Source: Ruditapes philippinarum
Lineage: Eukaryota
Length of the DNA stretch: 64,000 bases
Assembly: GCF_026571515.1 (NCBI RefSeq)
Contig: NW_026865136.1
Location: 124,001-188,000 of the forward strand
Reading direction: 5' to 3'
The notes below the pieces were generated by a model. The model made no database searches. It was not told where the DNA came from and saw only the letters and a list, made by a program, of their open reading frames with translations. Below, piece by piece: positions 6,807-57,740 of this stretch; positions within the stretch are counted from its first letter, which is position 1, and each line of letters starts with the position of its first letter. Both the position numbers and the translations under genes were made by a program.

Positions 6807-6967
6807 ATTTTTAACGACCCTATTCATGGGCAAGTGGAGTTACATCCCGTGTGTATCCATATTATAGACACACCTCAGTTCCAGCGATTGAGACACATCA
6901 AACAACTAGACACCTGTTACCTGGTGTACCCAGGTGCCAGTCATAACAGGTTCGAGCACTCTATAGG
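6807..6967 (+). CDS. SAMHD1: SAMHD1-like A exon: [54 protein letters not shown]
   Basis: tag|ATT...GG|gtaagc, 161 nt; SAMHD1 allosteric/H167 segment. Confidence 0.95.
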
Positions 6968-9900
6968 GTAAGCGATTCTTCCAAAGGTTTGTTTTAGATC
7001 TACATAACTTTGAACAGCCTAATAACTCAACGTGTATTTAAGTACACAGTAAATGAAATACATATAATACATTTAGTTTTTTAATAAGTGCGACTTAATT
7101 AATGCATTTATCGAACAAAAGAAAAACAGGAAGCATTTATGATTTCTTTCCAGTCCGTGAGATTGAATACTATCATATATTTTCATCACAAAGGTACTAT
7201 TTATTTATCATAATGTGTAAACAAGCAGATATATATGGGAACATTAGACAAGAAAACTTGAATAAGCCTTGTTAAAAAAATTAAATGTGTCATTACAGCG
7301 TATGTTACCTAGCTGGAAAACTCTTAAGAACTATTCGAGATGGACAACCGGGTGAGGAAATATCTGTCACTGACATTCTGTGTGTTGAGATAGCGGGACT
7401 CTGTCATGATTTAGGTATGGCTAAAGAAAAATGCTTTCAATTAAACATTTCAAATGTGTTGTTCATGCACTGTTACGATTGTAATTTTATATCAATCAAG
7501 ATGTTAGTTACCGAAAATTGAATGTGCAAATCTAAGTTAAGAATTGTACAATGATGTACCAAATAATAATTGTAATAACATATGTGTATTTTGTAAAATA
7601 AATATATATTTTAAAAGGCTCGTTGTGGCACAGATAGGTTTTTATTTTATTTCTCTTTTTCTGGTGTCCTGTTATAGTAACCAAGACCACCGTTTGCTTC
7701 TGGTGCCTTTTAGTAATTAGTTAAATTTTTGTGAATTAGGATCTTGTATGGAAGTCAAAATACTACTTTCTTGACATATTCATAATGTTATGACAAATTA
7801 TTTCACATTCAACACTCCTTTCTTCATGTGTTAAGCAACTACCTTGCTCTAAAATTGTTTATGTTAAGTATCAAAACTCATATTTTCCCTTTATAAAAAA
7901 GAAAATATTTAACCGTTTCCAAGAAATTAATTTCTTTAAATGAAATTTACCTCCAAAAACATTGTACTATATTTGCTGAAGTGGTGTTTTCAAACATCTA
8001 CAGGGAAGCTATCCAGCTAGCTTACGGAATGTCGGTGGTTCTACTCTAATGCACGGAACAGCCAGTCTTTCTCCGCCAGTAAAGGTGGAACGTCGCCATA
8101 TGACCTTTACTGTGTCGGCTTGATGTAAAGCCCAATCAAAGAAACAAACAAATAATCATGAATGTATATAAGTCCAAGTCGTTCTGAAACAAAATAAAGT
8201 GAATAAAGGACGCTGAAAAAATGTACTATGATTCTCAATCTACATCATTTTAGGCCAAGGACCATATTCTCATGTGTTTGAAAAACGATTTATGCCTAAA
8301 ATGAAAAAGAAGTTTACGGTAAGTAAATTTTGTGAAGCTTAATATTTTGTCATTCACTTTTAGCAGTTTGTCATTTTGTCGCTTATATAAACAGCATCAA
8401 TATTTGTTACATCTAATGGATGGCAAAAACGAATGTATATATCTATAATAATCAATTAGTAACAAATCATTAGTTCCAAAAATAAAAGCTTAATCAGAAA
8501 AATGGCCTTTGTTATTAAATTTATGAAATCATGTGCACTAAAATATCTAAAACCAGACATAGAAGTACATGTATTCCAAAATAGAGATTTTATATTTGAC
8601 ATTTCAGCATGAAAATATTGCTCGGAAGATGTTTGAGCACATGCTTAGTACCAACAACGGACAGTTGAAAAAAGATATAAATAAGGAACTAAAAGAATGC
8701 GACCAAAACCCTTTACAAGAACAAGACTTTACCTTTATCTGTGAAATGATTGATGATCCTATAGACATTGGAAAACACGTGGTAAGAAATATTACATGAA
8801 ATGTTAACGTCAAGTTTATATTATTAAATATTTATTTGCTGATTATGAGTAATGGGCCACATAACATTTTTGCGCACAGCGACGATGACAATGACGACTA
8901 CGCCACAGGAATCTAACAGCTCGACCCAATTGTCGAGACGGACGAGCTAAGTGTCAGTGATTGTGCCATAAATACACGGTAAAGATTAAGATACTAAAGT
9001 AGATAGTCAGCTCAGTTACAGAGATAACCAATGTATCATGGAAATAAACAGTATATTTGCTACGATTATAGTAATATTTCTCTATCGTTTTTAAGATGGA
9101 TTGCAACGAAAAGAGTTTTTTTGCTTATGTGAACCTCTCCAAATTTAACAACAGGTTTGTTGTTATGTATGTAAGGTAAATTGTTGTGCCCAAACTTGGT
9201 TTTGGACCAACGGTCTCTAGGTTGAGAGTAAGATATCTTGAACAATATCACCTTCATCTTACAACAATGTATTTTGCTCTAAATGTAACTTGTTTATTCA
9301 ATATATGAAAAGCCCCGTCAATTTTAAGAACTTGTTAATTTATAGCAAATATAAAGCATTGTAGACTATAAAAGAGGAAAAGTTTAAAACACAAATAACT
9401 TAAATATTTCATACCGTGTCTTATTTGCATGGTACCGCGATGTTCCTTTGATGTTCTTCAGCTGTTAAATGAACACACCAGTAACATGCTTTATTGACAA
9501 GAACGCTCAGTGCGATATCAGAGATAACGCACACTTCTTTTATGTTGGTTCAATTTGTTTATGAATAACCGTGCCTGTAGACAAAAGAAAACAAGAGTCA
9601 CTGGACTATGTTAAATCTCAGACTAGAAAATAACGAATGTATTCAGATTGGGGAGAGGTAATGGGCTCCTGAGAATATGATCTTTAGTTAAGACACAGTT
9701 TTATCTAGAGCATGGACACACGTGTTTGAAAACAACCTCAATCTTTTTGTATAGGCAAAGACCCTTCAGATCGCACCAGGCCATGACATTTTTTACATAG
9801 CAGTCTCTTCGCTATACTTAAACTGTTATGTAAATGACACAGTTTTTTTGAAAGTAGAATAAAAGTATGTGTGTTGATTACACAAATTGTTAAAGATATT

Positions 9901-12900
9901 GATATATTTCAGGAATGGCCATACAAAGGAAGAAATATAGACAAAAGCTATATGTATGAGGTAAGGTAATTCTTCGTTATCTTTTAGGGAAAAACCGTTG
10001 ACAAATGTAAAAGTGGAATGAAAAAAGCAACATTAACTTAATGCGTTTTTTAAAATTTAATTTTCTTTCTTTTAAGTCTTTTAAGCCCACTTAAGCACTT
10101 TGTGCACAGCTGTGAAAGCATTGTCCATCGAGCATTATGCGTCTTCATCCAATATTTCTTCACACTATATCCCCCTCTCTCTCTACAGCTCATAAATCAT
10201 CCTTAGGCGGTCCTCTTCAAATAGGTTCAGTCTTGTGCAGGAGAAAAACACCCTCTTACAAACAGCATTTCTAAGGGCCTTCATATTTGGCACATTGTAT
10301 TCGTGTTCAAAAAATATAAACTTTGCTCACTTGTGGAAGTTACTTAACTAACATAAAAAAATAAAACCGTTTTGTAACAATATGTCCTTGAGTTTAATAA
10401 GTCGGTATTTAGAAATATCGATTGGACCACTAAATAAGTAATATAAGTTAAAGATTTATTTCCAAAATTATAACGGCCCCATGAAGACACCATAACCCAA
10501 ATAATTGAAGAATTAAGACATTTTAAAGTGCCACTTAAGACCATCCATTTTAATAACACTTCACTAAGATTTACTTTTGTTCGCATTTAATTGCCTCCGA
10601 GTATGAATCTGCAATGAATTGAATAGAAATAACATTTTTATATGTTTATATATCAATTATATATTATGAAACTATGACTTTGTTGTTATTGATGTTCATG
10701 AGTACACAATGCAGAAAGTCGAAATTGCAACAATGCAAAGAACAGCAGTTCATATGCACAACCACGACATATTTTATGTTTATATTATGGGCCTTCTTTT
10801 GCCGTCAATTTGCATGTCCCTTGTAACTGGAAAATTGCGAAACACAAAGAGAAAAAATGACTTTGTTGTATCTTTGTGTGTTAGCATTTTCATTTCATTT
10901 TGCTGCGAAAAAAGCGCAAATTCAACTTTGCCAAACTTACCCTAAACAAGTATGTACTGTTTGAATATAATCACAACAAGATGTTAACATCTAAAACATA
11001 CCAACATTGGATATAATCCATTTTTGTTATATTTTGAGAAATGGCATGTTTTGGTTTTATTTATTTGTATTTATTTTCAAAGGAAATATTACGACGGGTG
11101 TTCAAATATGAATACAACTGGGTCAATTTTCAGAAGTGCTTTACAAAAAGTGCTAAAATGATTTTCTCAATCCTTCGACTCACCACCATATGATATACAA
11201 AGATTTAGTCTTTTAATCCTATTTTAAATGCGTTTTCATTATTTTTATGAGCTATATTGTTCAGACACAGGCAAATAGCTAAACCAAGTTTTTTTTTTGG
11301 CATTTGATATTTCTTCCAGCAAGATGTGTTTTTGAGCCTCGGAAACAGAAAAAAGGCACAAGAGGCAGAAAAGGAGGGTTTTTGAAATATTTCTTTAACC
11401 TTTTCCCTTATATAAGCGTGTTTCGACGGCTTTTTGCCCCCCCCCCTTTTTTGAGGCCCCAAACAGTGAAAAAATGTGCTATTTAGACCCCAAACACTGT
11501 TTTTCGTTTGAGAAATGTTGTTAAAAAAGTGACCATTTTTTCGGCGCCCTCCTCCATCCAAATAATACATCAGGGGGTTGCCAGAAGGGGGATGTGCCCC
11601 CTTCTGTTTGGGGGGTTTTAAGGGGGGCGGAGTCCCCCTCATCGCCTAGAAAATTTTGGACTTGTGAGAGGCTTAAAATGACCCCAGGTTGATCATAAGG
11701 TAACGTGTAACCAACGCTGAAAAGCCTTTGACTCTATCTCAATCCCTTGAGAAGTTGCAGCACTTTGAAATACATTTTGATGGAAAAAATCGAGGCAAAA
11801 AAGTGATTTTTGGCAATTTTGAGATGTCCCCTCGTTGCCATGGTAACAGGAAATTTAAGACTGAGCATGTCGTTACAAAGGCAATGGTCCAGTCAACATT
11901 TGTGCCAAGTTTGATTAGTATTGAAGCATTTTTCATAGTTTCATAGCAGTTTGAACTTGTAAGAGGAGGCTTTTCAGTGAAAATGGCCATTTTTCACAAT
12001 ATGCTCATGGGGGAAAGGGTTAATATATGAAGGACATTCCCTTTATAAATCTTGGCATATACAGATTAACCCTTCGGTACGGCAATTATTTGAATAGCAG
12101 GATCTTGATTGGTAAAGAAAATAACATACATGACCTTTTTTTGACACTCATGGTGCGTTTTGGTATGCGATGTCTTTGACTTCCTTTGGTTTCGTATGTA
12201 TCTTTCGCTTGGGTTCATAAAAGTGAACCCAAGACTCATTACCACTTATGATATTTGCAAAAGATCGATTGTTGTTTATAGGGAATTGTTTCAACAATTA
12301 TTTGGAGATTCTTACCCGAGCATGTTCTTGCTCTTCTGTAATGTGATGGGGTATCCATCTTGCACTTATCTTTCTTATTCTTAAATTACGTCTGTGTTTT
12401 GTATGAGCGGCTCCTACAGAGATACCAACCAAATTTTAGACGGCGTACATGGAGTGCATCTTTTCTGAATCCACACCACCTTTAATTTTCTTACACCACT
12501 GTGTGACAGATGAAAAAGAAAGTTAATGTTTCCATAAACACGACATATTTTATTAAATATGTCTTTCGCTTGTATACCAAGAATACAGCGGTTCTTGATA
12601 TAGGTCCGCATTTGGTCAGTGAAAGGGAGAACTTTTCCCAACCATTTTAGCTTTAGTATACACTTATAGATAGCGATACAAAGCAAGGCTGAACTGATTT
12701 ACACATGTATTGTATCAATTGAGAGCTTCCACAACCATGCGATACATGTATATACATGTAGTTCGTACAAAACGTGGTTAAAAGCGAGATATTGGCCTTG
12801 TTGCATGCATATTTGAACAACCCTCGTATTTTATTATCAGTCTTAAATTGTGAACTATTTATAATTGTGTTTTATCTTTCATATTGTTTTATACTAGAAT

Positions 12901-15900
12901 TTATGTATTATATAGGTATGTTTTTAAACTAAAATAAATAAACATGTAAATATTTTTTTTATTTGGAACGATATGCACAATAAGTAGTAGCAATATTTAT
13001 ATGGTATTTATGATTTTACAGCTTTTGTTGTAATCGACACCATGATTGATCCCGTCTATTTTTCAGATAGTTGCAAATAAACGAAACGGTATAGACGTTG
13101 ACAAATGGGACTATCTTGCACGTGACAGTTACATGCTGGGAATGAAATTCAATGTCGATTACAACAGGTGTTTTACAAATGCAAGAGTTATCAAATGCAA
13201 CGGGATAAATGGCAGCCACGATACAAACGCAGCGCCCAATACCGGTAATGTTAAAATTGAAAGAAAACAAATATGCTATAGAGAAAAGGTGAGTAACCGT
13301 CATAAACGTATCTATGACACAAACATTTAAATTTGTTCCCAATGTTTGTACTTGTCATTAATTATTTTAATATCAAGATTTGAGATAAATGGTAAATACT
13401 ACTAAATAGTTGATAGTACGAGTAATCAAGATTTTTCCAATTACTGGGTACATGAATATGGCTAGATATAAACGGCTGTCAGCTTATATAACCTAAGCTT
13501 TTATTGAAAACAACCTTTCATACACGGCCATATAACCTGTCAGATGTTTAATAACGAATTTATATTTAATCACTTTCAAGAAAAATGAAATTTCATAAAT
13601 ATTCAACAGCCTACATTAAGTGCCAAGCTGAGGACCGTGTGTCAATTGTATGCGTTGAAATGATTTCTTCGTTAACAATTCAAAGCGATTGTATGGATTA
13701 GCATCACATTGTCATTAAAGATAAATTATAAACGATTGTATTTCACATTAAAAAAATTATATTCGTATCACGTATAAGTATAAATGGCTTGTAAAAGTGT
13801 TTCATATCTTTAAAGCTTGTTTATATTCGTTTCTATTTAGTAAACATTTTATTAGATTCCATGTACAATGACACCCGTGTTAGTTTTTGGAGCAGATGAA
13901 CCATTCCATTCTAGATTCTCTCGCAAACACCACTTATCGTTAAAGAAGCTCCACTGACCCAAAAAGCTTAAAACATACAATTTTAAAAGGAATTAAATTT
14001 AATATTGCTTTTTTGTCCGATTTCAAGCTCGGGTTGAGCTTTTCAGTCATTTTGCAAAAGAAAAATATTCTGGAAAAATGGGTTGAGGAAATAACCACAA
14101 GTCATTAGTCCAGACTCAAATCAAATCACAAGCTGATGACGTCATTTGACGTCATTTTTATATAAAAACGAAATATTAATAATTGAATTATCAAAGAATC
14201 ACTGAAAAAATCATATCTACGTTAACACAAGAACAATTAAAACTTTATTGGGCGGTATATAGTAATCAACTTTCTATTTGTTTCGGTACTTAACGCAAGC
14301 AAAGAAAATTTAATTGTTAAAAAAATAGCATGTTGAAAATTTTATAAACCTCGGCTTCTTTAGTGCCTTGGGTTATATTGATATTCTGCTTGCTACATTC
14401 CAAGGACAACTCAGCAGTCTATAAACTAATATTAGTATGTAAACAAAAATGATGTACTGTTATACATAATCAAATACTTAGAGATGTAGTATAAAACAGA
14501 GGGTATTACAAGGGCATGTCATGCACATATTTGATTATCCGTCATTTATTAGATTAAACTGTCTTTTTTTCTTCGTCTAATATGTTTCACAAATCAGAGC
14601 ACTAGATCTATAAAAACGAACAAGTCAAACAACTATTGAAAACTCTTAATAATAAAAATTTTATAGTAACATGATACATTTTGAATTTATTTCAACTTAC
14701 TTTCGACAGGCATTGTATAAAAGTAAAATTTGTAATATCATTATCATAGTATGACGTTTAATTTTCTTTTTTTGAGATTTTTCATTCCTGTAAAATGTTA
14801 ATATGTTAATTTTGTATAAATGTTATGTATTTGACAATTAAGGTAGCGCAGGACTTGTATGACATGTTTTACACAAGGATGACATTGCATAGACGGGCAT
14901 ATCAGCACAAAACTCACAAAATCATCGGAATAATGTATGTATTTGCTAGTAAAATGTTTATGTTCATATACTAATTTTTGGAATAAGAAAATTTAAATAT
15001 TTTTGATGTTCGTGTGTATGTTTGTGTGTGTGTGTGTTCGTGGGTGCGTCGGTGCGTGTGTGTGTGTTTTTTTTGTTGATGACTGTTTGTGTTTAAGGGC
15101 AATATTAAAAAAATCAAGTGATTTTTTTCGCTTATTTACTTAGATAATGAAGTCATGTTGCATTTAATAGATACCAAGATTTGTCTTTCTATCAATTTTT
15201 TTTATATTTTCGGCTTATCATTTATTCCATTCAAAGCCACTGGTTTAAATTACGCCAGTGACTTTGAAATTTCTAGAGTTAGCTTTCATATGTTTGGTGG
15301 TTATATCAAGGAGCTCGCCTTAACTTGAAAAACTAGTGTTGAACGATCTTTTTCGTTGTGGAAAAGGTTCATTGTTCGTCATGAAAAAGATCAACAATGA
15401 AACCAAGATTACGAGTTACGATTCCAGTTAATGAATTTGCATTTTGTGTGTGTGTGTGTGTGTGTGTGCGTGCGTGTGTGTGCGTGTTTGTTGTTGTTTT
15501 TATTTTTGCACGAGCCAATGTCATCTATGAATAGAAACAGTTAAAGCGTGACCGCAACATTTTCAATTTCTTCGTGTTGGTTTCATGACCTTTAGAGTCT
15601 CCTTTTTCGACTATTTTAGCACAAAAATCTATTGTTTGCTTTTAGGATTTGCGATGCATTAGAATTAGCAGATGCTCATTTTACAATAAATGGCAAGAGG
15701 TATGTAATCATTATAAATATGACATGGAGACTACCACGACTAAAAGATAGATTAATTCTATAAAATTATACCTTGGATAAAAAATTTAATCAGTTAATAA
15801 TGATTTGTTATCTATTTGACAAGAAGCATTTACATACAGCTTTACAAGGTAACGATCAACTTTTTTTATATCGTATCATTAAATGATCTTCTGGCCCCAT

Positions 15901-18900
15901 GTTCACTAAGATTTAAGGATCAGGATCAAGATAAAATTTTAAAACTCAAATATTCTTCATTGTTTATTCTCACAGATTATCACAAGTATCTGCTATAAAC
16001 TTGATAAAATTGAACTTGAAATAACATGTTTCAGAAATTTTAGAATAAATATCTTATTTTTTTAAAAGATATGGAAAATTTCAATTCATCCATAAATTGA
16101 TCTGGATCCTGAAATATATAATTAATTTGATCTAATTATACACAATGTTTTCATATTATTTGTCATTTCTTTCCGAATTAAGGTTGTTTATGTGCATATC
16201 AGCAATGTTTTATATCTCATTTATGTACCATATATTATTTTTTTTGCAAAAAAATGATCAATTGTAGTTTTATAAAGCAATGGAAAAATCCGAATCATTT
16301 AATCTTAGTGAACATGGGCCTAGGTTTAGTTGCCAGCTTATCCACGTAATTTATCGCAATTTGTAAAGCTTGTAACAGATCAATAGATGCCTTAACATTC
16401 ATCATACTGCATATTATAATAAAATACTTAAAGTTTCGTGGTACACATTAGATAAATCCCTGTATATAGACGACTATAGAGGAAAAAACAGTTATAAGTT
16501 GTTTAGGAAAATTATTCAAAAGTATCCATAACTGACTAAATTCTTTTCTAGAGAGTTCAGGATTGTAATGTGAATATGCTGATTAAAAAATAAACAATGA
16601 CATTGTAGATAACATATATACTTTAAAATTGTAATTTGATTTTTATCTTAGTAAGAATAAGAAATGATATTGTGAATTTGTGGTCTATAAAATCGTTTGA
16701 TTTTGTAAATAGAACTTGATGATGGAAAAAAACTTTTGAAACACAATATAGATGGTAAAATGCCGAGAATGATTTACAATATACATAACTAAGCTAAATA
16801 ATGTCTGTAAACACATAACAACATTATTTTACAAGTGCAACAGGTGTCCGTCCAGCCATTCATCTTTATAAATAACTCAATGATAGTACAATTTCTTGTC
16901 CTTCTTTTGTATTTGCAAGACAAGTATAAAACAGATTTCTTTCCAAGTTCTGAAAATTCAGATTAATAAATGTTTTGAGATAGTCCGTTGACATGAATCC
17001 GTGTTGAGTAATTCGTTACAACTCGTCTAGGTAGCATGGAAAGCATACACCCCAATATTTCATGTTTTTGATGGGATGTACAAGCACATGTCGTTTGTTT
17101 TACGGCGACATTGTCATTCAGTTGCTTACATTCCTGACATCTGTCACTTCGATATGGCGAATGCTACTATAAGGCGGCAATTCAGAGCAGCAGAGTTATG
17201 GAGGGCCCTAGTGTAGGTGCAGCAGGTTGTCAGGTTGATGTACACCATATCGCAATCACCGAAGCCTTGGAGAGATACCGGCTACATGGTAAACCCGCCA
17301 GGATACATGCTGGAGGTCAGCAATGGGTCACAACACCAGCTCAGGATCGGTTGTTGGTCGTTCAGGCACGCCGTGCTAGCTGTTCGACAGCAACTTATCT
17401 TCGAAATGACCTTGCTAATGCTGCGGGAGTCCGTGTTTGAACGCAAACGGTACGTAGAAGGCTGCTTGAAGGTAATTTTCGATCGGGAAGATATTGCATA
17501 AGTATCCCTTGACGAGTCAACATCGCAAGGCTCTTTCGAAATTGCCACGGAGCATAAACGATGTACATACCATGTAACATTATGTTTTCTGATGAGTCGA
17601 GATTCGGCTTAGACTTCAAAGATAGGCGTGCTAGATTCTGGAAAAGACGAGGTGAACGGTTTCAGGCTACACATATTGTTCTGCATGGCCGCTACGGGGA
17701 ATGGGTCAGTTACGGTGAGGGTAGGTATCAGCTGAAATGGACGAACCGACCAGGTTGTGCTTAATAGTGGCACATTGGCAGGTCAGCGATATATAGACGA
17801 CATCTTAGACAACCAAGTTAGGTTGTATGCTGTAGCAGTCGGCTATCAGTTCATTCTAATGGACGATAATGCTCGCCCCATAGACCCAGGGTGGTCCAGG
17901 ACTACCTAGAGAGGGATCTTTTGGTCGCATTGACTGGCTAGCTCGCTCGCCTGACTTAAATCCAATAGAACACATGTGAAATTAGCTTCAGGTTAGAATT
18001 TCAGCTCGTCAGCTGCAACCCAGAACCATCCAGGAGCGTGGAGCCAAGTTGGTCCATGAATGGGCAGGCATACCCCTTAGAACTATCAGAAACCAAATAG
18101 GGAGTATGCGAAGGCGCTTCCAATCTGTTATTGATAGTCACGGGTCACACACACGGTATTTAGTATAAAACTATTAAACAACAACAATAACAACAACAAC
18201 AATAAAAAAACAATAAAAAACAAACAATTTAACAAATTTGGAACACACGCTGCATGTTCTGAAGTCTTCAAAGAAGGATGTTATACTCTTCTCTAGCACA
18301 ACATCAGTAACACTCAAATATAGGGTAAAATTTGCCCTTCAGCTGTATTGATAAAACTGTAAATCAACATTTAAAACCTTTCGCACGGCGTTTAAAAATA
18401 ATCCCCAAAAATATTCACACTCGAACATATGGTCCTTAGCAAAAGTTGAGTAGTATAGTTTGGCTACTAGCTTTGCTTACACACTTTCATCCTTTTTTTG
18501 TGACTTCTTGTTTTTTTGTTTGTAAAATTTGCTGTTAATAACCGTGATAATTATGGACCTGGTTTGAAATTCGATATATTTGGCATTATGTGATATAACT
18601 AGAATGAACTTAACTGTTAATACATGTTGCTTTAAAGAAAAATATGAAAGCAGACATGTAATACAATTTATAAAAATAAACCTTTTAGAATTTCAGAAAC
18701 TGTTGACGATATGGAAGCCTACACATATTTGAATGATGACGTCATTCAATTGATTATAAATGATAAGGAGCCCAAACTTGAAGAAGCAAGAAAAATTTTA
18801 CGGGATATTATGTACAGACGGTTGTTAAAGTGTGTCACTCAAACACATTGTAAGGTAAGTTTGCTTTCCAATTGCCGTAGGTCAATACAGATCATTTGTG

Positions 18901-28970: not shown

Positions 28971-29019
28971 TGGATCTGACATTTGGGTGTAGATAAATTT
29001 GATGAACTTGAACGTGTAC

Positions 29020-29820: not shown

Positions 29821-29827
29821 GTTAATA

Positions 29828-37411: not shown

Positions 37412-37558
37412 GTTTCGTATGTTCTTTGCGACAATTTTAAGGAGAGTATTATACGTATCTATTGTAATATGCAGGACGATTTTGAAAAGGAAATCGTGTT
37501 TAAAGTGACATAAGCGTTTGGAGAGTGGTGTAAGGACAATCAATGTACCAATCCAGAG
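37412..37558 (+). pseudogene. SAMHD1: Orphan copy of the SAMHD1-like B penultimate exon, with in-frame stop
   Basis: Near-identical to 56489-56635, including flanking intron (about 37250-37760 vs 56330-56860); TAA at 37511-37513. Confidence 0.93.
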
Positions 37559-44339: not shown

Positions 44340-44740
44340 ATATTTGCAGCTTTCAACGTGTCACACGCATATCACCGAGGGTCAAGAAATGTTACAGAAA
44401 TTTGGTCACATGTGTTGTAGTGCACCTTGTATTTTGCGCGTATTTTTATTCAGAATTTGTAGAGTAATTGCCCTTGACTTTTTGTGTCACGTGACGTCTA
44501 AAAGTGTTTGAGATAGAGTCATCAAATTTACATAAATGTTGATGTGCATGTAAAATTGTGTAACTGTGGTTTTGTGTGTGGATTATTTCAGTTTTGTTAG
44601 TGTCATTGCACTTGTCTTAGTGAAAGTTTACAATTTTCAACTTTTGTCGCGCTTAGCCACAAAAGTGCTGGACGTTGGGTAATGAAACTGTTCGGGAATG
44701 TGAGTCAGCATGTGTAGTTGTGCACCAGAAGCTAGTTTAT
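44340..44740. repeat. Degenerate tandem units of an interspersed repeat
   Basis: Three recurrences of ttgtgtcacg..gagtcat.aaa.tt.cag.aatgt..gtcagcatgtgtagttgtgcac. Confidence 0.5.
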
Positions 44741-47930: not shown

Positions 47931-49844
47931 GAACGTGAGTTTTAAATAAAGTAATCAAAACTGTTCTTTTACAAAATATTTAACCTTAACGCCGAAGAAA
48001 GACACTTTTTATTCTTGTTAAACAGAAAAGCTACAATTGTATGCTATTCATCTTTATTTTTTTAGCTTTATTTGCAATTTGAAACTGAAACCAACCAGAA
48101 TACATGGCTTCTTCGTTACAAAACCAACGTACAACAACAGAAAGTAGACAAAGTTTGCAAGAACAGGCAAATAAATTATATAGAAACAGGAAAGTAAGTA
48201 CAATTATTTAAATTCTTTGTAATATTGTTGGATTTTGTTTTTAATTGATAACTTCTGTATTGTTAATTTTATACTGGGCTTTTAATTGGACTTTCACGTT
48301 ACGTGTAGAGGACTGAATACCGTCTACCGGTTCTATAGGGCGTGATAGATGCTGCATTTTTCCATATTCCGTCATGAGAACAGACTCATCTAACCAAGTC
48401 TGCAATTTTCATATATATAAAATGTCGATATAATTGAAATGTCGATTTTCTTGTTTCTGATGGGTCTTCTCTTTTCTAGATTTTCAGTAGACAGGGTTTC
48501 ATCTATGATTGCAAGGATTAACAATAAGACCGTTTCAATGATTGCAAGTACAGTCACACACAAGTGATAATGTATTTAAGTCCTACTACACATTGACCGC
48601 ACTTGATTTGATTTGATTAAGAAATTTGCAGTTTGTATATCATGAAAGAGGATGCAACGCTTGAAAAGGTTTCAAACCCCGTCTGTTGTTTTTCGTTTTC
48701 ATTTACATGTAATATGCCGTTTACTCTCTTTTATTTTTTTAAAATGTTAACTGAAATGAAAATTTTACGATTTTTAATTCATATAACTTTGGCAGGGGCA
48801 AAAATATAAGTCTTGCCGTAAGAGTACAAACAACACAATAATTATTGTATTGTTGAATTCAACTTTTTGTATAAATTAGGTAATACTGAAATATATCTTA
48901 TCGTCAACCTGTTATCTTTTAAATCTGACAAGTCAAATGTTCTCAGAAAGTGAGACCTTAATGTAAACAAACTACCTTGGATTATATCACACATATTGAT
49001 CATAAACCTATTTCAATGATCACAACGATTTATTTCAAGCAAAAAACATATTTATCAAAAAAATGTCAATATATCAAAATAGATAAAAGCTATGTAAAAT
49101 GAAAATAGAAAATTCAGGGAACAGAAAAACCCGTCTCACAATATTATATCTATCATAAATTATGTCATAAATGTTAGTGGAAGCTTATCATTTGATACCA
49201 CATGTACCGTATTAGTTTTTATCCTGATTTCACATGGTATCAAATACCACGGAGCTCATACCCGTAAAGAAAGTATCATTCATTTGAAGTTAATAAGGTA
49301 TATTACACTATATGATGAGTTTGTAAGTAAGGATTGTTTTTGAGTATTACAACAGTTCTTTAATGTTTGCCGATATTATGATCTTGCATATTTTTAGGAT
49401 TATTGACAGTGTAACGCTTTAAGGTACACAAACCCTGCCGGTGTAGAGCTAGCTCACATTCCCTTTTGTTAACTTAACAACTTTAGTATTTGCATATCAG
49501 CATGCTCATTATGACGTTCTACCAACGTCGTTACAACATCTTAAATTAAGGGACCCGCTGATGTTTTTTATTGACGTGGCTGGATGGGAAATATTTTTTT
49601 TGAAATTAGTTTTCCATTTGATACATGTCTGGACGAATCAGTTGTGTGCAAATGCCTAATCTGTTTGTTCAGAAAAATCACTTAAATTGTGTAAAATAAC
49701 TTTAAATGAAAAGTTTTAACTCAAGTCGGGCTACTAATCGTACAAAAATCGATTTTCAATTGAATTGCTATGCTAATGAGAATAATTACTTTATAGTTAA
49801 TGCTTAATTACTGTTTTCTTAAATTGGTCACTTTAATTCAATAG

Positions 49845-50005
49845 GCTTTCCAGGATTTCATTCATGGAAAAATAGAGTTACATCCGGTGTGTGTTCGTAT
49901 CATTAATACACCGCAATTTCATCGTCTCCGACACATCAAACAAATAGGGACCTGCTATTACGTGTACCCAACTGCCTGTCACAACCGATTTGAGCATTCT
50001 ATAGG
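49845..50005 (+). CDS. SAMHD1: SAMHD1-like B exon [54 protein letters not shown]
   Basis: tag|GCT...GG|gtaaaa, 161 nt. Confidence 0.94.
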
Positions 50006-53000
50006 GTAAAATATTACATTCTATGTATTTAGTTCATCTGAGCACAAATGACTCAGATGTGACTTTTTCGTGATGGCAGTTGTGTCTGTCGTTTGTCGTA
50101 ATCCACAATTTCATTAAACAACATCTCATGTAAAAGTACCCGGTGGATCTTTACATGAATGATACTTAGACAATCTTTTAAAAGTATTTAAAAATTGTAG
50201 AATTGGTTTTAGTTTGATACATAAGAAGGTTGCAGAATTTATGAAATGCGGTCTATAAAAATCCCTCTTGTCCTGAACAACAATTCCTGGAGCTTAAATA
50301 CATGGCATGAAATATCTCTAGGGGGCCTCTACTAAAATTATTCAAATAGCCATTGCATGGGTGTAAATTAGTGCCTCAAAGGCTAACGTTTCGATATTTG
50401 GTATGATATTGAGTAATAAATCACTGACTTTCCTTAATAAACTATGACTTAAATTCCAATGACTGACTTCCATTAGCAACCCGTGATTTATATAGTAACC
50501 ATAGACTTTAAATTTTTGCAATAACAACCTGTGGCTTTTATATTTTATATGCTTACTATTCAGAGGCACTTTCTTTTCACCCAGATTTTGGACTAAAACC
50601 TGCCATTTTGTTCCTTGTCATAGGCACCCTTTATAGTGTGATATGCGATTAAAGGATAATCATGGTCCTGTTGTTTCCCTTTGGTCTTGTATATCGATCA
50701 TATGCCTGGCCCAGTGATATCTTTACGGCACACTAATTTTGTCTCTAAGATCCCACAAGGTAAGCAATTTCTTAAATGTTGGCATTTTTGACAGCCTGTT
50801 GTGTATCTATATTATAATGATATTGTGAAAATATTTTTACGTTAAATAAAACACATTTTATAACAATCTTTGAATGAACATTGCATCATAGAACTTAAAA
50901 GTTACATGCAGTTATAGCGGAAACTCCTCAGAGTGGTCCTTTGTAGAACAATTACATATTTAAAACGGTAATTATAGAGAAGGACTTCGTTATTATTTAA
51001 ACCGTTTTTGAACAGCACCTCTAGGCAGCACACACACTTTTTGTCTCTTACAAATGTTTATGCACTTTAGATGTTGTGCTTTAGCTATCTAAACACATGT
51101 TCGTTGCTTTGTTTAATCAGTTTGTTTTTTATGGCAGTGTATGTTACCTCGCTGGAAAACTGGTCCGAAAACTCAAAGAACGACAGCCAGACGAAAATAT
51201 AACAGACGTAGACATTTTATGCGTAGAAATCGCCGGAATCTGTCATGATTTAGGTAGGCAATGCCAGTTCAAGATACGTCGTTGAACGCCACTCTTGCTT
51301 GTTGATCCTGTTTTCAATATAATTTGACATATTAGAGTCGCTCTACAAGTCAGTTCCAACCGTACAAGTAAAGGCTACACGGACATGCGGAATGTGAATG
51401 ATTAACATGACTAGTGAATTACCCTTAGTTGTCGTGAATATCCCTCCAACATTCAAATAGGTTATGCGCTTGAAATGTCTTTTCTGCATTAACGATTGAC
51501 CAGTTCAATGAAGCCAGCCAAAAGAAAAAAGTGACACATTTTAAGCTAGCTGTAATATTAACGTGTCGGACTAAAAACGTTATTTCTGCACATCTTCCCA
51601 CCAAATACCTATTACATCCATGACGAAACCCACAAAACATAGAACATACAAATAATTACTTTTTACGCATTTGGCCATTAACTTTGACATTGTCTTTGGC
51701 ATGTCAATAAGAAAACCATTTGATGTTTGTTTCATAAAATCAATCCAGAAGTTTACAAGTCACAGAGGGAACACATCTGTTGACATTTAACTGTACTTTT
51801 GATTTTTAATATTTCATTTGGCATTGAACTTAAGTGATTGCAAATTCTGCAACTGCGATTTATGATATGAGCACCCGGCACAAGGATGATTTACACGTCT
51901 CAATAGTTTCAAAACATTAAGACCGAACACAATTCCTTGATAAATATTAAACGATAAGCTGTAAGACTGTTAACAAATTGACTTTGAAATCGTGGTTTGC
52001 CATCTTAAACGTATTTAAGTTTTGCTCCTTGTCTTAATGATGAATTTAAAATCAGTCTCATTAAACAGATACATGTTTTAAAGAGAACTACTGTAATGTT
52101 TTTACAATAACCTAATTAGGTAAGTCAATTAGTCTACTTTTGATCTCATTACTAAATCTTTATTATTGTTTCCATAAACTGACAGAAGCACCTACCCCTT
52201 CAAATGTATGCTTGTATGTACGGATGCATGGACCGTCGATCAGCTTCATAACATAATATAGCTTATGATGCCAATAGAAAGGATTTTTAAAAATTTGATA
52301 ATTTAATGATGAATCATCAAAGGTAAAATCATTTTCAGATTTTAACATTTGAAAGTAGTTTAGTAATTTTGGAAACATTTAGAGTGGTTTAATTATGAAT
52401 GTTTCCTCTAACTCTTATTTACCAGCATTTTTAAACAAATTTTTTAACGATTTCAGATTGTTGCAAATGATAGAAACGGTGTTGATGTTGATAAATGGGA
52501 TTATCTGGCACGTGACAGTCATATACTTGGATTGAATATGACGCTAGATTACGAGAGATGCTTTACTAGTGCTCGAGTTATTAAAAGCAATGGAGAAAAT
52601 GGGGGTAATGGAACAAATGGTGAACATGCTATTGTTCCTCGGAAGCAAATTTGCTATAGAGAAAAAGTAAATTCTTTATCATTAAAACATCATAAAAACA
52701 AAATAATGCATTGTTTAATCATATAAAACTGAAATGGGTGTACAAACATTAATTATGAAAACGACAATGTCACACGTACATGTCAAACTATTGCTTAACC
52801 TAGCCTTCATCAACACCGCTGTTGGTTCGAATTTCGTCAACGACGTTTAATTCGTTCATGTGAGGAACTTTTATAGACAGCTTAAGTAAAATCGGTGGCT
52901 TTGAATCCCGTTCCGGTCTGAAATAATGCACGAAGGTGAAAATGGGCTCCAGCAGTAAAATGAAAACCAAATGACCTAGTTTTTCCTTTCAAAACTTTAT

Positions 53001-56000
53001 AAGCGTATTCTTTCCACATTTTATCACTTATTTGATGACATTACCCTTCCTGTCACATTTTAAAATTTGGGACGCTGACGACCTTTAGCTACACATGACA
53101 TGGTGTCGATGTGTTTTAAACCTAAATTAATAAACTGTCGATTCATAAAGGTAAAATATCTTTCTACTCCGCTGGCCTCATGGTATTCTGTAAATGTTTT
53201 ATATCAAAACTGATGCATGCATATTATATTGTTTATATTTCAGGACGCTTTAGACTTATATGACATGTTTTACGCAAGACTGAACTTACACAGACGGGCT
53301 TATCAGCACAAGACGCATACAGTTATTGGTCTTATGTAAGCTTATAAAATCTGAACCATGACTTTACTTCTTGATAAATTTGCATTTTGATGTTTTCGAA
53401 AAACTTTCACATGCAAATGTTTACAATAGATAAATTACACTTTATTAGTGATAATATTAGTGGGTGATGCAAATGAGCTAAGTACAAAAGAATATAAATC
53501 TAGAAGTAATAGGTAACATTTCTCATTTCAGGATTTCCGATGCCTTGATAGCAGCAAATGATTCTATATTAATTGGAGGGAAAAAGTAAGCTAATATTAT
53601 ACCTATGATAGTTTCGAATCACTTATTTAGTCTAGATAAGAATATAAAGAAACCACATAAAGATAAATCACTAAGATGCACTAAATTTACTTTAAGTACA
53701 TTGTTATGGTAATCTTTACGTCCACCTAATAAAGTATAGTTGTGTATATTAACATGTCATATGAAATAATAGATTGTTCAACAAATGATATCTTTTTTTT
53801 GGAAGCAAATACACGTATACATTATATTCTTACTAGCGTTTTATTCCTTGCGGTCCGAAGACCGCAGGGTATTGGTACGCGTTTTACTTTTGAGGCATGG
53901 AGGAGCACGTGACCAGTTTTCGGTGCATGGAGGAGCATGTGATCTGTAAACCGTACACGATTGGTTAATTGACCTTTTCGATAACCTGGCTAAATACCGT
54001 TTGTCGTTACTTTACGGAATTACCTCGAAGGAATTAGTCAGATTTAAACCTAATTAAGAACAAAAACCTATTACGTGATATTTCTAATTTTCTATAATTA
54101 TTTTACCGTTTAAGGTGGAAAAACTTGAATGATTTATTTGAAAATTATCATTGTTTCTTTAATATATGTATCTCAAATTTTACAAACAATAAATTGTTTA
54201 TAATGAAAATCTACAAAATTAAAATATTCTTAGTGGCATCTGCCATAATAAATAGAGATATTTTCTGCGTAAACTTGTGTGTTTACTTTATTTTTTTTTT
54301 GCTTTTAATTATTCATAATATGGTAGGCCTATTTAATCATTTTCTTAAAAAGAAATAATTGTTTTATGTTCGACCTTCTCCGGTCATCAACGGTCACCAG
54401 TTTTGAAAGACCTTCTATATTGATCGATTATTGTCAACTATATTCCCGATATAAACGTTTATTTATTCCCCTCTGCCAAAACGGTGTTGAAAATAGTTAA
54501 ATGAAATATCTTTATATATGAAAAATGTTCCCCGCAGGAAACCATTTTTACTTGTTACTCAGTTAGTTTGCTATCGTTGATTTAGAATTACAGAGACAGT
54601 GGACGACATGAAGGCATTCACACTTTTGACAGACGATGTCCTCCAGTTGATTATCCATAAAAAGAAGGAAGAAGACTCAAGAGGCAAAGACAACCCACAA
54701 CTTGACAGAGCATATCAACTGATACAAGATATCATGAACAGAAGACTGTATAAATGTGTTTCCCAAACACATTGTAAGGTAAACAAGTATATGTTTACTA
54801 AAGGTATGCATTTTTGTTCAGCTATGTAATGCTAGCGTATTTATTATATGCTGTTACGTGCTATTGCTCACCTTTATGATGAATATTACAAGTATGTTGA
54901 AAAAAAGCTATCCGTTTTTCGTTTAAAGGTAAGCTAACATGGCATTTGTATTTTCGGTTTAACGAAATAAACTGGCACTTGCTTGATAATTAGCCCCGTT
55001 ATAATTCTACAGGTTACCCTTTTTTCTACAAAATATTGCCTTTACTTCAAGCAATAAATGGCCTTATCGATTGTTTTGTGGGCCCTTTGGCTGAACAAAA
55101 ATTAGTGAAAGTGATTATTCTGGAAAGAAATGGCGTGGACCAAAGACATAAAAATTTGTACCTAAGTTACTGGTCCATACACACATAATTGATAAATAAA
55201 ACTTGACAAAACCTTTCCAAGCTCTTCATGCCAAAAACACCTCCTTGGAGTTTCTTTTAAAAATGTAGTACGAATTCTTCTATCCCCTTTTATGAATATA
55301 AGCTTCATCGACACAACAAGTACCATTCCCATGTATGTACAGCGGTTACCTTTACAGTTTCTTTTGTCGATTATAGGATAAAAATCTAACAAAAGCAGAC
55401 GTATTAGATGGACTGAAAAAATGTTTGAAAGACAAAAGTGTTCCAGAAAATTTTATAATCGTTAACGTAAGTAAGGACAAAAATAATATAATATCTATTT
55501 AAAAATTCAGATCTGTAGGGAAAAAATATTACTGAAACAATATCCAAAGGTTATTTTATATATTTTTCAGTAAAAGAAAAATTAATATCAAGAAAAGGTT
55601 CTTGTCATTACAGTTATAATGACAATGTCATTTTTAAAGATATACCGCTATGTTTTAAGGACGACATTTAATTGTGTTATAGTCTATCTTATCAGATTTG
55701 TTTGGTTACCATACCTGACAGTCCGTACAGTCAAAAGGCGGTTAAAATACTAGACACAATAAGTTTCTATTAAACATTATTTTTAAATTTGTAAAACAAT
55801 TAATATAGCAAAAAATGTAATGAAGTACCGCATGTTCGCCTAAGACGGGCACAATGTAAAGACTCTTACAGATATAATTTGATCAAAACGCATTTCTAGG
55901 CGGTATAGTGTGTAATTATGTTTTTATAAACTAATGAAATCCATTTATTCATATTTACAAACACGATCAGCTTCATCAATATATAATGCTGCAAATCTTA

Positions 56001-57740
56001 AACGCATCGCTTCAATGTTTTAGATTGTGAAATTTAACTACGGTATGAAAAATAGAAATCCTTTGGATAAAGTACGATTTTACAAGAAAGACAAATTGGA
56101 TACAGCTTTCAAATTAAAAAAGGAACAGGTACTTTAAAAGTTTCTTGACTTGTATATCATTATGCATAAATTAACCGACTAAATAACTTAAACTGTAAAT
56201 TCTTAAACTAGTTATCAAGTTATGATATTCATAAGTTGTTTTGACTGAGATTGTTTTCATTCAGTTGATTATGATATCTGAAAGTGAGTCACACCAGTAA
56301 CCCTTGTTCGTCTTCTTTAAAAGGCTCGTTTGTGTATGAAACCTTCTTCTCTAATGTCTTCTAATAAGATCTTTTCCCAGATGCATTCCTATCGCCACGT
56401 AGTAAACATTAATGATTGAAAGAGAACATCGGAATGTAAAGTACATGTATTACAAACAGTGTTGAGTATTTGTGAATATATTTAACAGGTTTCGTATGTT
56501 CTTCCCGACACTTTTGAGGAGAGTATTATACGTATCTATTGTAATATGCAGAACGACTCTGAAAAAGAAATCGTGTCTAAAGTGACTGAAGCGTTTGGAG
56601 AGTGGTGTAAGGACAATCAATGTACCGATCCAGAGGTAATTTATGCCCTACAATGAATGGAATCAAAGACATACATTTAATGATGGCACATAGCATTAAC
56701 ATACAAGGTCATGTACATCCTCTCCGCGAGAAGCAAAAATTCATTTTTGTCCAAATCATATTTGAATAAACATACAATGTATCCACCTTTCAAAGTGTTT
56801 TTTTGCAGAATGTCTTAATAAAAGTTTAACACTATTTAATTTTGTAGATAAAATACAGAAAATAAAAGGACAAATATGCCTTAAAAATGCTTTTAACTTT
56901 ATAACTCAAATGTTTTATTGTTTTTTGTTGTTTTTTGTGTGTATGTGTACTCTTATCGTTTCCAAAATAGTTAAAAATACCCATTGGCCATTTAGCTGAA
57001 TCATCTTTTTGTCAATGAATACATGTAAAGTGACTTAGTATTTTGTAATTCAAAATACTACTTTCTTCAGGTAACATGCATTTTACATGATTTACAACAA
57101 TTATTCAAGTGGATTATTCAAACAAATACATTTAATTGTGTCATCAGTCATCAAATTATGGATGTGTTATCTTTTGTTATCTCTTTCGCTTGCCCGATAG
57201 CCTGAATAAGTTAAATCAATATATAAATATTTTATTTTGCCTTTGAAAATCTGCCAGTCTTATTGATATTATTACATTATCGTACATTTTCTTCGCATCA
57301 AAACGTCTTTTAAAGTAATCCGTTACACGACTGTAACTACTAATGAAAATAGATTGCAAGAGAATATTTTGATAGAGTGAAATAAATATTTGATAGTTTG
57401 CATTTTTTTATTCTTAATTCGGCAAACAATACGACATATGAGGTAAAATAAAAATAAATGACGATATTGTAACAAAATTTGAAAGTTTTAATGCTAGAAA
57501 TGAATTTGACAAAGAATAGATAATAAAACGAAATGTTACACTTTGTAGGGCAAATATCATCAAACAAGACCGAAAACAAAAGCGTCAAACGAACCGATAG
57601 GCTCAAACACACAGGGACATTCAGATGAACCTGTACCTAAACCCTTACCCGAACCTGCATCAGGTCAATCAAGTCTAGTGCAGCCAATAGTTTATGACGG
57701 AGAAGGGATAGATGTACGATCACAAACAACAGACCAGTAA
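49845..57740 (+). CDS. SAMHD1: SAMHD1-like paralog B (multi-exon; three internal exons absent; possible pseudogene or pseudoenzyme)
   Basis: Exons 49845-50005, 51138-51253, 52457-52666, 53244-53335, 53532-53585, 54586-54778, 55377-55466, 56024-56128, 56489-56635, 57549-57740. All are open with GT-AG ends and share intron positions with A. Confidence 0.92.
50028..50680 (+). mobile_element. Degenerate HINE-like element in an intron of B
   Basis: tttagttcatctgagcaca..tcagatgtgactttt hairpin head, gtctgtcgt microsatellite, catggtcctgttgtt end. Confidence 0.55.
51138..51253 (+). CDS. SAMHD1: SAMHD1-like B exon with HD motif (VCYLAG...IAGICHDLG)
   Basis: cag|T GTA...TTA G|gtaggc, 116 nt. Confidence 0.94.
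52457..52666 (+). CDS. SAMHD1: SAMHD1-like B exon [22 protein letters not shown]...QICYREK
   Basis: cag|ATT...AAA|gtaaat, 210 nt. Confidence 0.94.
52800..52985 (+). mobile_element. Degenerate SINE
   Basis: ggttcgaat B box, catgtgaggaa..cagctta..cggtgg..gaaataatgcacgaagg core. Confidence 0.6.
53244..53335 (+). CDS. SAMHD1: SAMHD1-like B exon [30 protein letters not shown](M)
   Basis: cag|GAC...AT|gtaagc, 92 nt. Confidence 0.94.
53532..53585 (+). CDS. SAMHD1: SAMHD1-like B exon [17 protein letters not shown](K)
   Basis: cag|G ATT...AA|gtaagc, 54 nt. Confidence 0.9.
53839..54556 (+). mobile_element. HINE/DINE-like element
   Basis: 5' ttattccttgcggtc-cgaa-gaccgcaggg hairpin and 3' ccccgcaggaaaccatttttacttgtt. 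Confidence 0.6.
54586..54778 (+). CDS. SAMHD1: SAMHD1-like B exon [17 protein letters not shown]...[15 protein letters not shown]
   Basis: tag|A ATT...AAG|gtaaac, 193 nt. Confidence 0.93.
55377..55466 (+). CDS. SAMHD1: SAMHD1-like B exon [30 protein letters not shown]
   Basis: tag|GAT...AAC|gtaagt, 90 nt. Confidence 0.87.
56024..56128 (+). CDS. SAMHD1: SAMHD1-like B exon [35 protein letters not shown]
   Basis: tag|ATT...CAG|gtactt, 105 nt; YGM..NP...V.FY.K motif. Confidence 0.93.
56489..56635 (+). CDS. SAMHD1: SAMHD1-like B exon [18 protein letters not shown]...[14 protein letters not shown]
   Basis: cag|GTT...GAG|gtaatt, 147 nt. Confidence 0.93.
57549..57740 (+). CDS. Probable terminal exon of paralog B (GKYHQTRPK...KPLPEPA...TTDQ*)
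   Basis: tgtag|GGC in phase 0, 64 codons ending TAA; disordered composition; PEPA shared with the A tail. Confidence 0.72.
   Translation, partial: GKYHQTRPKTKASNEPIGSNTQGHSDEPVPKPLPEPASGQSSLVQPIVYDGEGIDVRSQTTDQ

What the first reader, a model, noticed from the sequence alone, without database searches (positions are those of the whole stretch)
6807..57740. Tandem SAMHD1-like cluster whose paralogs are altered at complementary functional sites
Seen: two paralogs with identical intron positions plus a dead third fragment. Both keep the metal ligands H167/H206/D207/D311. A keeps allosteric-site-1 residues (D137, Q142, R145) but has H210Q and a crippled K523-containing exon. B keeps that exon but has D137N/Q142H and lacks the H210/H215/H233 exons. 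Established: SAMHD1 is a GTP/dNTP-activated homotetrameric dNTPase that restricts viruses and retroelements, and is single-copy in mammals. Inference: this is either a birth-and-death immune gene family caught decaying, or diversification into pseudoenzyme/regulatory or nucleic-acid-binding subunits, possibly heterotetramers. The remaining exons of both genes are stop-free despite large A-B divergence, so any loss is recent.
Basis: partly seen in the sequence, partly recalled or inferred. Interest (0 to 1): 0.8.

Follow-up and report, generated by a model that had tools for sequence, protein, structure and literature searches.

The report
Clam SAMHD1 array, retuned and decaying
This is part of a large clam family of SAMHD1-like genes in which one copy has lost three exons and another carries a damaged allele of a gene that is spliced intact in other samples, while the odd active-site residues are old family traits that likely retune rather than kill the enzyme.

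Summary
The exons, residues and lesions are real; the 'complementary pair' reading is not supported. The genome holds at least 33 SAMHD1-like loci, four on this contig. H210Q is not A's lesion: 17 of 33 loci have Q210, always with E218, including both intact B-type copies and Mercenaria genes, in one clade. An active bacterial dGTPase has N/E at these positions. B lost exons 4-6 (287 nt, about 4.3 kb); direct splicing stops at codon 127, and only a weak cryptic mini-exon would restore the frame. A's exon 12 has a dead acceptor and a 1-nt deletion in an A-run, but all 6 listed contigs crossing the site in four public runs carry the extra base, and contigs from two studies splice A exons 11-12-13 in frame. 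dN/dS is 0.23 on A's branch and 0.39 on B's. Best reading: a birth-and-death array with haplotype-level decay. What remains interesting: a clam-wide Q210/E218 active site, and an intact B lineage with natural D137N (plus Q142H), the change that switches human SAMHD1 from GTP to XTP activation. No activity was measured and no reads were laid on B.

The parts
6807..6967 (+). Gene A exon 2 (N119, D137, Q142, R145, Q149, D151, R164, H167). Exon 1 lies outside the window at about G000:C13623:122392-122460 and has a weak donor.
7299..7414 (+). Gene A exon 3 (H206, D207)
8254..8318 (+). Gene A exon 4 (Q210, H215, E218)
8608..8781 (+). Gene A exon 5 (H233, E234)
9913..9960 (+). Gene A exon 6
13067..13288 (+). 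Gene A exon 7 (D311, K312, Y315, D319, D330, R333, R352, K354)
14843..14934 (+). Gene A exon 8 (D358, R366, H370, Y374, Q375, H376, K377)
15646..15699 (+). Gene A exon 9
18689..18854 (+). Gene A exon 10 (R451, K455)
19374..19463 (+). Gene A exon 11
20800..20903 (+). Gene A exon 12 (K523). In this assembly the acceptor is AT and one base is missing at the A-run near 20830-20838. Intact and spliced in contigs of two public runs.
21258..21404 (+). Gene A exon 13
22764..23498 (+). Gene A exon 14: seven 84-nt Ser/Glu-rich repeat units; its end is replaced by a dispersed-repeat insertion (about 23440-23708)
36761..37558 (+). Dead B-type fragment: exon 12 with frameshift, exon 13 with TAA
43947..44033 (+). 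Dead B-type exon 1 duplicate with an in-frame stop
48104..48193 (+). Gene B exon 1
49845..50005 (+). Gene B exon 2 (Q119, N137, H142, R145, I150, G151, R164, H167)
51138..51253 (+). Gene B exon 3 (H206, D207); ends in phase 1
51269..51294 (.). Junction of the deletion that removed exons 4-6 (about 4.3 kb relative to G000:C3378:55543-51251)
52186..52205 (+). Cryptic 20-nt mini-exon used by the public gene model P0272 to restore B's frame; weak acceptor, not conserved in the intact copies, untested by reads
52457..52666 (+). Gene B exon 7 (D311, Y315); starts in phase 0
53244..56635 (+). Gene B exons 8-13: 53244-53335, 53532-53585, 54586-54778, 55377-55466, 56024-56128 (K523), 56489-56635. All open, canonical splice sites.
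57549..57740 (+). Gene B exon 14

Best explanation
The window is a slice of a tandem array from a clam-wide expansion of SAM-less SAMHD1-like genes that likely turns over by birth and death: gene A is a living gene whose allele here is damaged or mis-assembled at exon 12, gene B is likely a young pseudogene made by a three-exon deletion, and the residue changes are inherited clade traits that are predicted to retune, not abolish, dNTP hydrolysis. SHOWN: copy number, exon maps, both lesions, in-frame spliced A contigs in two studies, Q210/E218 across one clade shared with Mercenaria, intact B-type sisters, dN/dS below 1. INFERRED: (1) Intact Q210/E218 proteins still hydrolyse dNTPs through the Fe/Mg centre (H167, H206, D207, D311, H233) and an H215-E218 proton relay, with the Q210 amide replacing the H210 contact. 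(2) Intact A-type proteins are GTP-activated at allosteric site 1, while intact B-type proteins (N137/H142/Q119/K234) have a changed or relaxed activator preference. (3) B's transcript, if made, is mostly frameshifted and degraded. (4) The expansion serves antiviral or anti-retroelement nucleotide depletion; this step rests on analogy only.
For: 34 exon-2, 33 exon-7 and 23 exon-13 matches in G000; 33 loci modelled. Position 210/218 across the 33: QE 17, HD 13, RE 1, RT 1, absent 1. The non-H210 loci and nine Mercenaria proteins form one clade, 29 of 29 tips, FastTree support 0.896 (0.935). 14 of its 20 loci in G000 keep all ten other catalytic residues checked. L. blandensis dGTPase has N120 at the H210 position and the His125/Glu128 dyad, and is active (PMC9257424 passages). 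Branch dN/dS: A 0.23 [0.15-0.36], B 0.39 [0.20-0.84], B's sisters 0.22 and 0.24. All 6 listed contigs crossing 20829-20837 have one more base; X1 and X3 join exons 12-13 at GT..AG, their loose ends match A exon 11 (29/30 and 30/30 bases) and X3's matches A exon 14 (30/30). B's deletion has collinear flanks in an intact copy; direct splicing stops after 126 aa. An intact B-type protein folds as SAMHD1 (pLDDT 87.5, Foldseek E about 4e-41). A canonical SAM-domain, H210 copy remains at C12383.
Against: Human H210A disrupts catalysis and substrate binding (PMC7045340 passage); Q was not tested there. Q210 is rare elsewhere: 4 of 129 motif matches among 150 representatives, all four clam proteins (21 had no motif match). 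No reads were laid on B, so neither its deletion nor its splicing is checked outside the assembly. A frame-restoring mini-exon exists and would give 489 aa. B's dN/dS interval includes its sisters' values, so relaxation is not shown. The acceptor base at 20799 was not reported in any run. X1 and X3 are RNA by the tool's guess only. Raw RNA runs X21 and X23 gave very low depth on A's exon bins and no exon joint among the 15 joints shown of 410. Some of the 33 loci are likely haplotigs (C8053 and C15858_98k: dN 0.008), so the true number is lower. No immune induction was tested.
Confidence: 0.68

Rival explanations
1. The Q210 clade is a family of catalytically dead or weak SAMHD1 pseudoenzymes that act by nucleotide sensing or nucleic-acid binding; the local lesions are still decay.
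For: H210A disrupts human catalysis. H210 is kept in 124 of 129 motif matches. Some open-frame members have lost further catalytic residues: C12776_153k (R210, Y215, K366), C15858_136k, C7986_108k. G151D/E sits next to the substrate-pocket residue L150.
Against: 14 of 20 loci keep H215, E218, H233 and all metal ligands, although synonymous distances within the clade approach saturation (dS 0.9-2.1). An amide plus Glu at these positions works in a bacterial dGTPase.
Confidence: 0.14
2. Both lesions are assembly artefacts and A and B are ordinary intact paralogs.
For: A's missing base lies in a homopolymer, and the closest allele seen (X16 record 3, one other letter over 20805-20987) has seven A where the window has six. 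Other copies in this assembly also show single frameshifts.
Against: This explains at most A's indel. A's AG-to-AT acceptor is a substitution. B's loss is a clean multi-kb deletion in non-repetitive intron sequence with about 25 bases of unaligned junction. The closest A allele reads K-T for the conserved N-P.
Confidence: 0.1
3. One reading: A (delta-exon 12) and B (delta-exons 4-6) are expressed as complementary subunits that form heterotetramers or regulate other paralogs.
For: Skipping A exon 12 keeps the frame (712 aa), and a mini-exon can keep B's frame (489 aa). Interface residues D361 and R372 are kept in both. The public model P0272 exists.
Against: H210Q is common to both lineages. 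A contigs from two studies include exon 12. The mini-exon acceptor scores at the 5th percentile, is absent in both intact copies and is one of 32 possible. The deletion removes about 96 residues, including five predicted helices of the HD core. Active sites are built within one subunit (recalled), so neither mutant could rescue the other's.
Confidence: 0.05

Closest known systems
Human/mouse SAMHD1 (PDB 7ujn, 6txc, 6brg)
   Same: HD-domain fold, metal ligands, H215, H233, most AL1/AL2 and tetramer residues; phmmer E about 1e-125 for the intact A-type protein; Foldseek TM 0.83-0.91 by target length for the intact B-type model.
   Different: No SAM domain; H210Q, D218E, N358D, H364Y; G151D in A-type; N119Q, D137N, Q142H, E234K in B-type; many tandem copies rather than one.
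Engineered human D137N-SAMHD1 (PDB 6TX0, 6TXA)
   Same: N137 at allosteric site 1. The human mutant is activated by XTP instead of GTP with comparable catalytic parameters (PMC7311409) and prefers xanthine-bearing ssDNA (PMC10711556).
   Different: Here it is natural and comes with Q142H, N119Q and E234K, whose effects are unknown. N137 alone also occurs in 11 of 129 matches among distant representatives, none with H142.
Bacterial dGTPases (E. coli Dgt, L. blandensis dGTPase)
   Same: Amide at the H210 position (N120) and Glu in the catalytic dyad (His125/Glu128; E. coli H126/E129).
   Different: Hexameric, dGTP-selective and far more distant in sequence (no hit to P0032 at E 10). The likeness is convergent and limited to two positions.
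Bivalve immune gene-family expansions; multi-copy SAMHD1-like sets in cyprinid fish
   Same: Tandem arrays with fragments and lineage-specific copies; 14 named Mercenaria proteins and several neighbouring Cirrhinus locus tags among the 120 listed hits. TLR expansion in bivalves seen as a search listing only (PMC10279657).
   Different: The complete fish copies listed keep H210; no description of the clam SAMHD1 expansion was found in the searches named in the report.

Membership tests
SAMHD1 family (HD-domain dNTP triphosphohydrolase) | HD-domain metal ligands H167, H206, D207, D311 | tested here: met
   Present in A and B
SAMHD1 family (HD-domain dNTP triphosphohydrolase) | General-acid dyad H215-D/E218 and Mg ligand H233 | tested here: met
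   A has H215/E218/H233; both intact B-type copies too. Window gene B lacks them through its deletion
SAMHD1 family (HD-domain dNTP triphosphohydrolase) | H210 alpha-phosphate contact | tested here: not met
   Q in A and in 17 of 33 loci; a related active enzyme has N here, so this marks a variant
SAMHD1 family (HD-domain dNTP triphosphohydrolase) | SAMHD1 fold and closest solved relatives | tested here: met
   (on intact sister copies P0032 and P0124)
SAMHD1 family (HD-domain dNTP triphosphohydrolase) | Guanine-reading allosteric site 1 (D137, Q142, R145, R451) | tested here: inconclusive
   Met in A; B-type has N137/H142 with R145/R451 kept
SAMHD1 family (HD-domain dNTP triphosphohydrolase) | Allosteric site 2 residues (N119, D330, R333, R352, K354, N358, K377, K523) | tested here: inconclusive
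   All kept except N358D in both lineages and N119Q in B-type; the residue list is partly recalled
SAMHD1 family (HD-domain dNTP triphosphohydrolase) | Nucleotide-driven tetramer and dNTP hydrolysis to nucleoside plus triphosphate | not testable with these tools
   Needs purified protein
Vertebrate-type SAMHD1 ortholog | N-terminal SAM domain and orthology to the SAM-bearing gene | tested here: not met
   No SAM in P0032 or P0124; the SAM-bearing ortholog is C12383_522k
Unprocessed pseudogene (gene B) | Disabling lesion in an intron-bearing copy | tested here: met
   287 coding nt lost, frame shifted on direct splicing; rescue by a cryptic exon not excluded
Unprocessed pseudogene (gene B) | Neutral evolution (dN/dS near 1) and no productive transcript | tested here: inconclusive
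   Branch dN/dS 0.39 [0.20-0.84]; transcripts not tested
Unprocessed pseudogene (gene A) | Lesion fixed in the species and no spliced transcript | tested here: not met
   In-frame spliced contigs in X1 and X3; extra base in 6 of 6 listed contigs; dN/dS 0.23
Complementary pseudoenzyme pair / heterotetramer | Each partner keeps what the other lost | tested here: not met
   Q210 is in both lineages; A's exon 12 is intact in other samples

The most novel reading that the evidence does not exclude
Venerid clams have evolved a diversified SAMHD1 arsenal: a Q210/E218 clade whose active site converges on bacterial dGTPases, and within it an intact B lineage (N137/H142) that is a natural xanthine-nucleotide-activated SAMHD1, sensing XTP or xanthine-bearing nucleic acid instead of GTP. 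Sister branches add HEPN-like domains or lose catalysis, and alleles are gained and lost between individuals.
Probability: 0.15. Interest if true: 0.8.

Novelty: new variant of a known kind. Interest (0 to 1): 0.42.

Why it matters
SAMHD1 is studied almost only as a single GTP-gated enzyme, and a recent paper calls the superfamily unmapped for substrate scope and allostery (PMC12042053, discussion part 1). A natural series of intact paralogs with H210 or Q210 and with D137 or N137 in one farmed clam makes two questions directly testable: whether H210 is needed, and whether nature uses a non-guanine activator. It also warns annotators: public models here join exons of neighbouring paralogs and add a filler exon. 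The specific A/B pairing in the window is ordinary decay and matters little.

Tried and rejected
Pfam HD search of the own genome found nothing because the exons are short (0 of 15 candidates); exon queries worked. The first read lay over 4000-23900 was swamped by intronic repeats. A SINE-like repeat just upstream of A exon 12 as cause of the defect was rejected: the intact copy has it too. Alternative donors or acceptors next to B's junction: 3 frame-restoring pairs, two of which cut off the HD motif; not scored. AlphaFold of the public truncated B model was confident (pLDDT 89.7; Foldseek to SAMHD1), but this says nothing about stability and was not used. IQ-TREE gave no supports (option error, timeout); supports are FastTree's. 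P0072 was mis-trimmed and corrected. No complex prediction was run: A-B paralogs would pass by likeness to solved SAMHD1 oligomers, and binding is not claimed. B-type orthologs outside this species: none among 3 hits or 13 hits at E 1e-150; a strict threshold, weak evidence. Earlier scan notes: nothing. My spliced aligner can hide a frameshift by moving a splice site (C2929_24k looks whole, but the public model P0025 is 279 aa), so lesion counts are lower bounds. Several H210 loci were modelled only in part. Supplements were not opened; the XTP kinetics of PMC7311409 and PMC10711556 lie in supplements and are cited from main-text statements.
Full report
SETTING. The window is G000:C13623:124001-188000 of a 1.41 Gb, 15,874-contig genome. 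Proteins that match G000 letter for letter are labelled Ruditapes philippinarum, and the next relatives are Mercenaria mercenaria, so this is a venerid clam. Human residue numbers come from PDB alignments, carried over through a fish ortholog in my alignments.

OBSERVATION. Two intact copies gave the 14-exon template: P0032 on this contig and P0124 on C3378. All 13 intron positions and phases are the same in both. Gene A has exons 2-14 at 6807-23498; its exon 1 lies 8.3 kb upstream of exon 2, outside the window. Gene B runs 48104-57740 without exons 4-6. A dead B-type fragment lies at 36761-37558 and a dead exon 1 near 43947. A and B share 246 of 452 aligned residues.

THE ARRAY. Exon 2 has 34 matches in G000, exon 7 has 33 and exon 13 has 23 (lower bounds). 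This contig carries three A-type genes, gene B, B-type remnants, and a further A-type fragment just past the window. C3378:15-46 kb is collinear with window 36-63 kb at about 70-85% identity and holds two intact B-type genes and a matching fragment; it is either a diverged haplotype or a segmental duplicate. I modelled 33 loci. Some are likely haplotigs, so the number of distinct genes is lower.

H210Q IS A CLADE TRAIT. Over the 33 loci, positions 210/218 read QE 17 times, HD 13, RE 1, RT 1 and absent 1. The 20 non-H210 loci and nine Mercenaria proteins form one clade (29 of 29 tips, FastTree support 0.896), so the change predates the split of the two genera. Both intact B-type copies have Q210, which removes the claimed complementarity. 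Fourteen of the 20 keep R164, H167, H206, D207, H215, E218, H233, D311, Y315 and R366. Pairwise dN/dS inside the clade is 0.10-0.36 in the 14 pairs with a usable dS. Outside clams Q210 was not seen: 4 of 129 motif matches among 150 representatives, all clam; 21 proteins had no motif match. In human SAMHD1, H215 is the general acid, D218 supports it, H233 binds Mg and H210 hydrogen-bonds the alpha-phosphate (PMC7311409, passages). H210A disrupts catalysis (PMC7045340, passages). The active L. blandensis dGTPase has N120 at the H210 position and Glu in the dyad (PMC9257424, passages), and E. coli Dgt needs H126 and E129 (PMC6511015 and its preprint, passages). I infer that Q210/E218 is a working variant. 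This is not measured.

GENE A IS ALIVE. In the window, exon 12 has an AT acceptor and lacks one base at an A-run. Included as is, it stops the protein at 432 aa; skipped, the frame holds for 712 aa. On 20778-21520, all 6 listed contigs that cross the site in four runs carry one more base (X1 1, X3 1, X16 2, X19 2). Several of the DNA contigs leave the intron and are probably paralogs. One X16 contig is a close allele (one other letter over 20805-20987) with seven A instead of six. Contigs of X1 and X3, from two studies and RNA by the tool's guess, join exon 12 to exon 13 at GT..AG. Their loose ends match A's exon 11 (29/30, 30/30), and X3's other end matches A's exon 14 (30/30). A's branch dN/dS is 0.23 [0.15-0.36]. 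So the frameshift is likely a homopolymer error or a private slip, and the acceptor change may be a real null allele; its state in other runs was not reported. Against: raw RNA runs X21 and X23 showed very low depth on A's exon bins and no exon joint among the 15 of 410 joints shown.

GENE B IS LIKELY A YOUNG PSEUDOGENE. Alignment to the intact copy at C3378 breaks at 51269 and resumes at 51294, skipping about 4.3 kb that holds exons 4-6. These exons total 287 nt, so exon 3 (phase 1) joined to exon 7 (phase 0) stops after 126 aa. The public model P0272 restores the frame with a 20-nt exon at 52186-52205. Its acceptor scores at the 5th percentile of 159 family introns, it is not conserved in either intact copy, and it is one of 32 possible frame-restoring mini-exons; with it B would be 489 aa. 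B's branch dN/dS is 0.39 [0.20-0.84] at dS 0.055, against 0.22 and 0.24 for its sisters: the loss is recent and relaxation is not proven. No reads were laid on B; both lays went to A.

THE B LINEAGE. B and its two intact sisters form a clade (support 1.0, stem 0.39) with N119Q, D137N, Q142H and G at 151; the intact two also have E234K. One sister has Y315C. P0124 folds as SAMHD1. Human D137N is activated by XTP rather than GTP with comparable catalytic parameters (PMC7311409), at least 7-fold better by XTP than GTP (PMC10711556, passages). The effect of Q142H and E234K is unknown, and N137 also occurs in 11 of 129 matches among distant relatives, so it may simply loosen regulation. A fungal SAMHD1 is active as a monomer (PMC12042053, passages and discussion part 1 of 2).

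MECHANISM. Shown: tandem copies, fragments, two recent lesions, purifying selection, spliced A contigs. Inferred: unequal crossing-over makes and removes copies; intact SAM-less proteins deplete dNTPs; a SAM-bearing H210 ortholog at C12383 keeps the ancestral role; the extra copies serve defence. The last step rests on analogy. An oyster study lists a SAMHD1 among transcripts that differ in a virus-resistant family (PMC6971885, passages), and a clam study lists one as up-regulated after peroxide priming (PMC13266081, passage).

IN PRINT. No description of this expansion or of natural Q210 or N137/H142 SAMHD1 was found in these searches: SAMHD1 + gene expansion + invertebrate (1 paper; its one mention is a reference), SAMHD1 + bivalve (9 listings), SAMHD1 + paralogs + duplication + teleost, orthologs/evolution terms, the species name + SAMHD1 (3 listings), lineage-specific expansion + mollusc (15 of 208 listed). 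Most were seen as listings only. PMC10485159 and PMC12186264 were searched for residue terms without useful hits. The library lacks most subscription papers.

VERDICT. The feature is real. The pairing of A and B as complementary subunits is not supported; decay in a large family explains the window. The family's retuned active and allosteric sites are a new variant of a known enzyme and are easy to test. Interest 0.42.

Noticed in passing
G000:C12776 near 153 kb (P0031, P0275, P0277): Open-frame paralog with R210, Y215, R234, K366, T370: a better pseudoenzyme candidate than A or B. Full-length versions occur on 2.8-2.9 kb Logan contigs. C15858_136k and C7986_108k also lack catalytic residues.
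   Followed up: partly
G000:C13651 and C7986 copies (P0045, P0046) and Mercenaria relatives: A branch of the Q210 clade has a 330-aa N-terminal extension with a weak DZIP3-like HEPN match (Pfam E 4e-4 to 9e-3 in 5 of 6 proteins, below the curated cut-off; Atlas score 0.87, a lead only).
   Followed up: partly
window:22764-23498: A's last exon holds seven 84-nt repeat units; a dispersed repeat inserted near the old stop gives a fortuitous 19-residue hydrophobic tail.
   Followed up: partly
window:58853-61349 (-): Non-LTR retrotransposon remnant; the ORF at 59718-60905 matches RVT_1 at E 3.5e-34.
   Followed up: no
G000:C13623 and C3378: Public models join neighbouring paralogs: P0273 has exons 1-12 of the 92 kb copy and exons 13-14 of gene A; P0270 and P0271 join the two B-type copies. 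Likely read mis-mapping; read-through splicing was not tested.
   Followed up: partly
window:20830-20852: The allele closest to the window (X16 record 3) is in frame but reads K-T for the conserved N-P before the K523 strand, hinting that this allele lineage was already decaying.
   Followed up: partly
G000:C13623:122392-122463: A's putative exon 1 has a poor donor site (score -2.4 against a family 5th percentile of 5.0) and is followed by an 8.3 kb repeat-rich intron.
   Followed up: no
P0072 (Dreissena): Has D151 and E218 with H210 kept, but does not group with the Q210 clade: the same changes may have arisen twice.
   Followed up: partly
window:33889-34618: 386-nt tandem duplication at 98% identity.
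   Followed up: no
listing: Many fish SAMHD1-like proteins have two HD domains or crystallin (PF00030) fusions.
   Followed up: no
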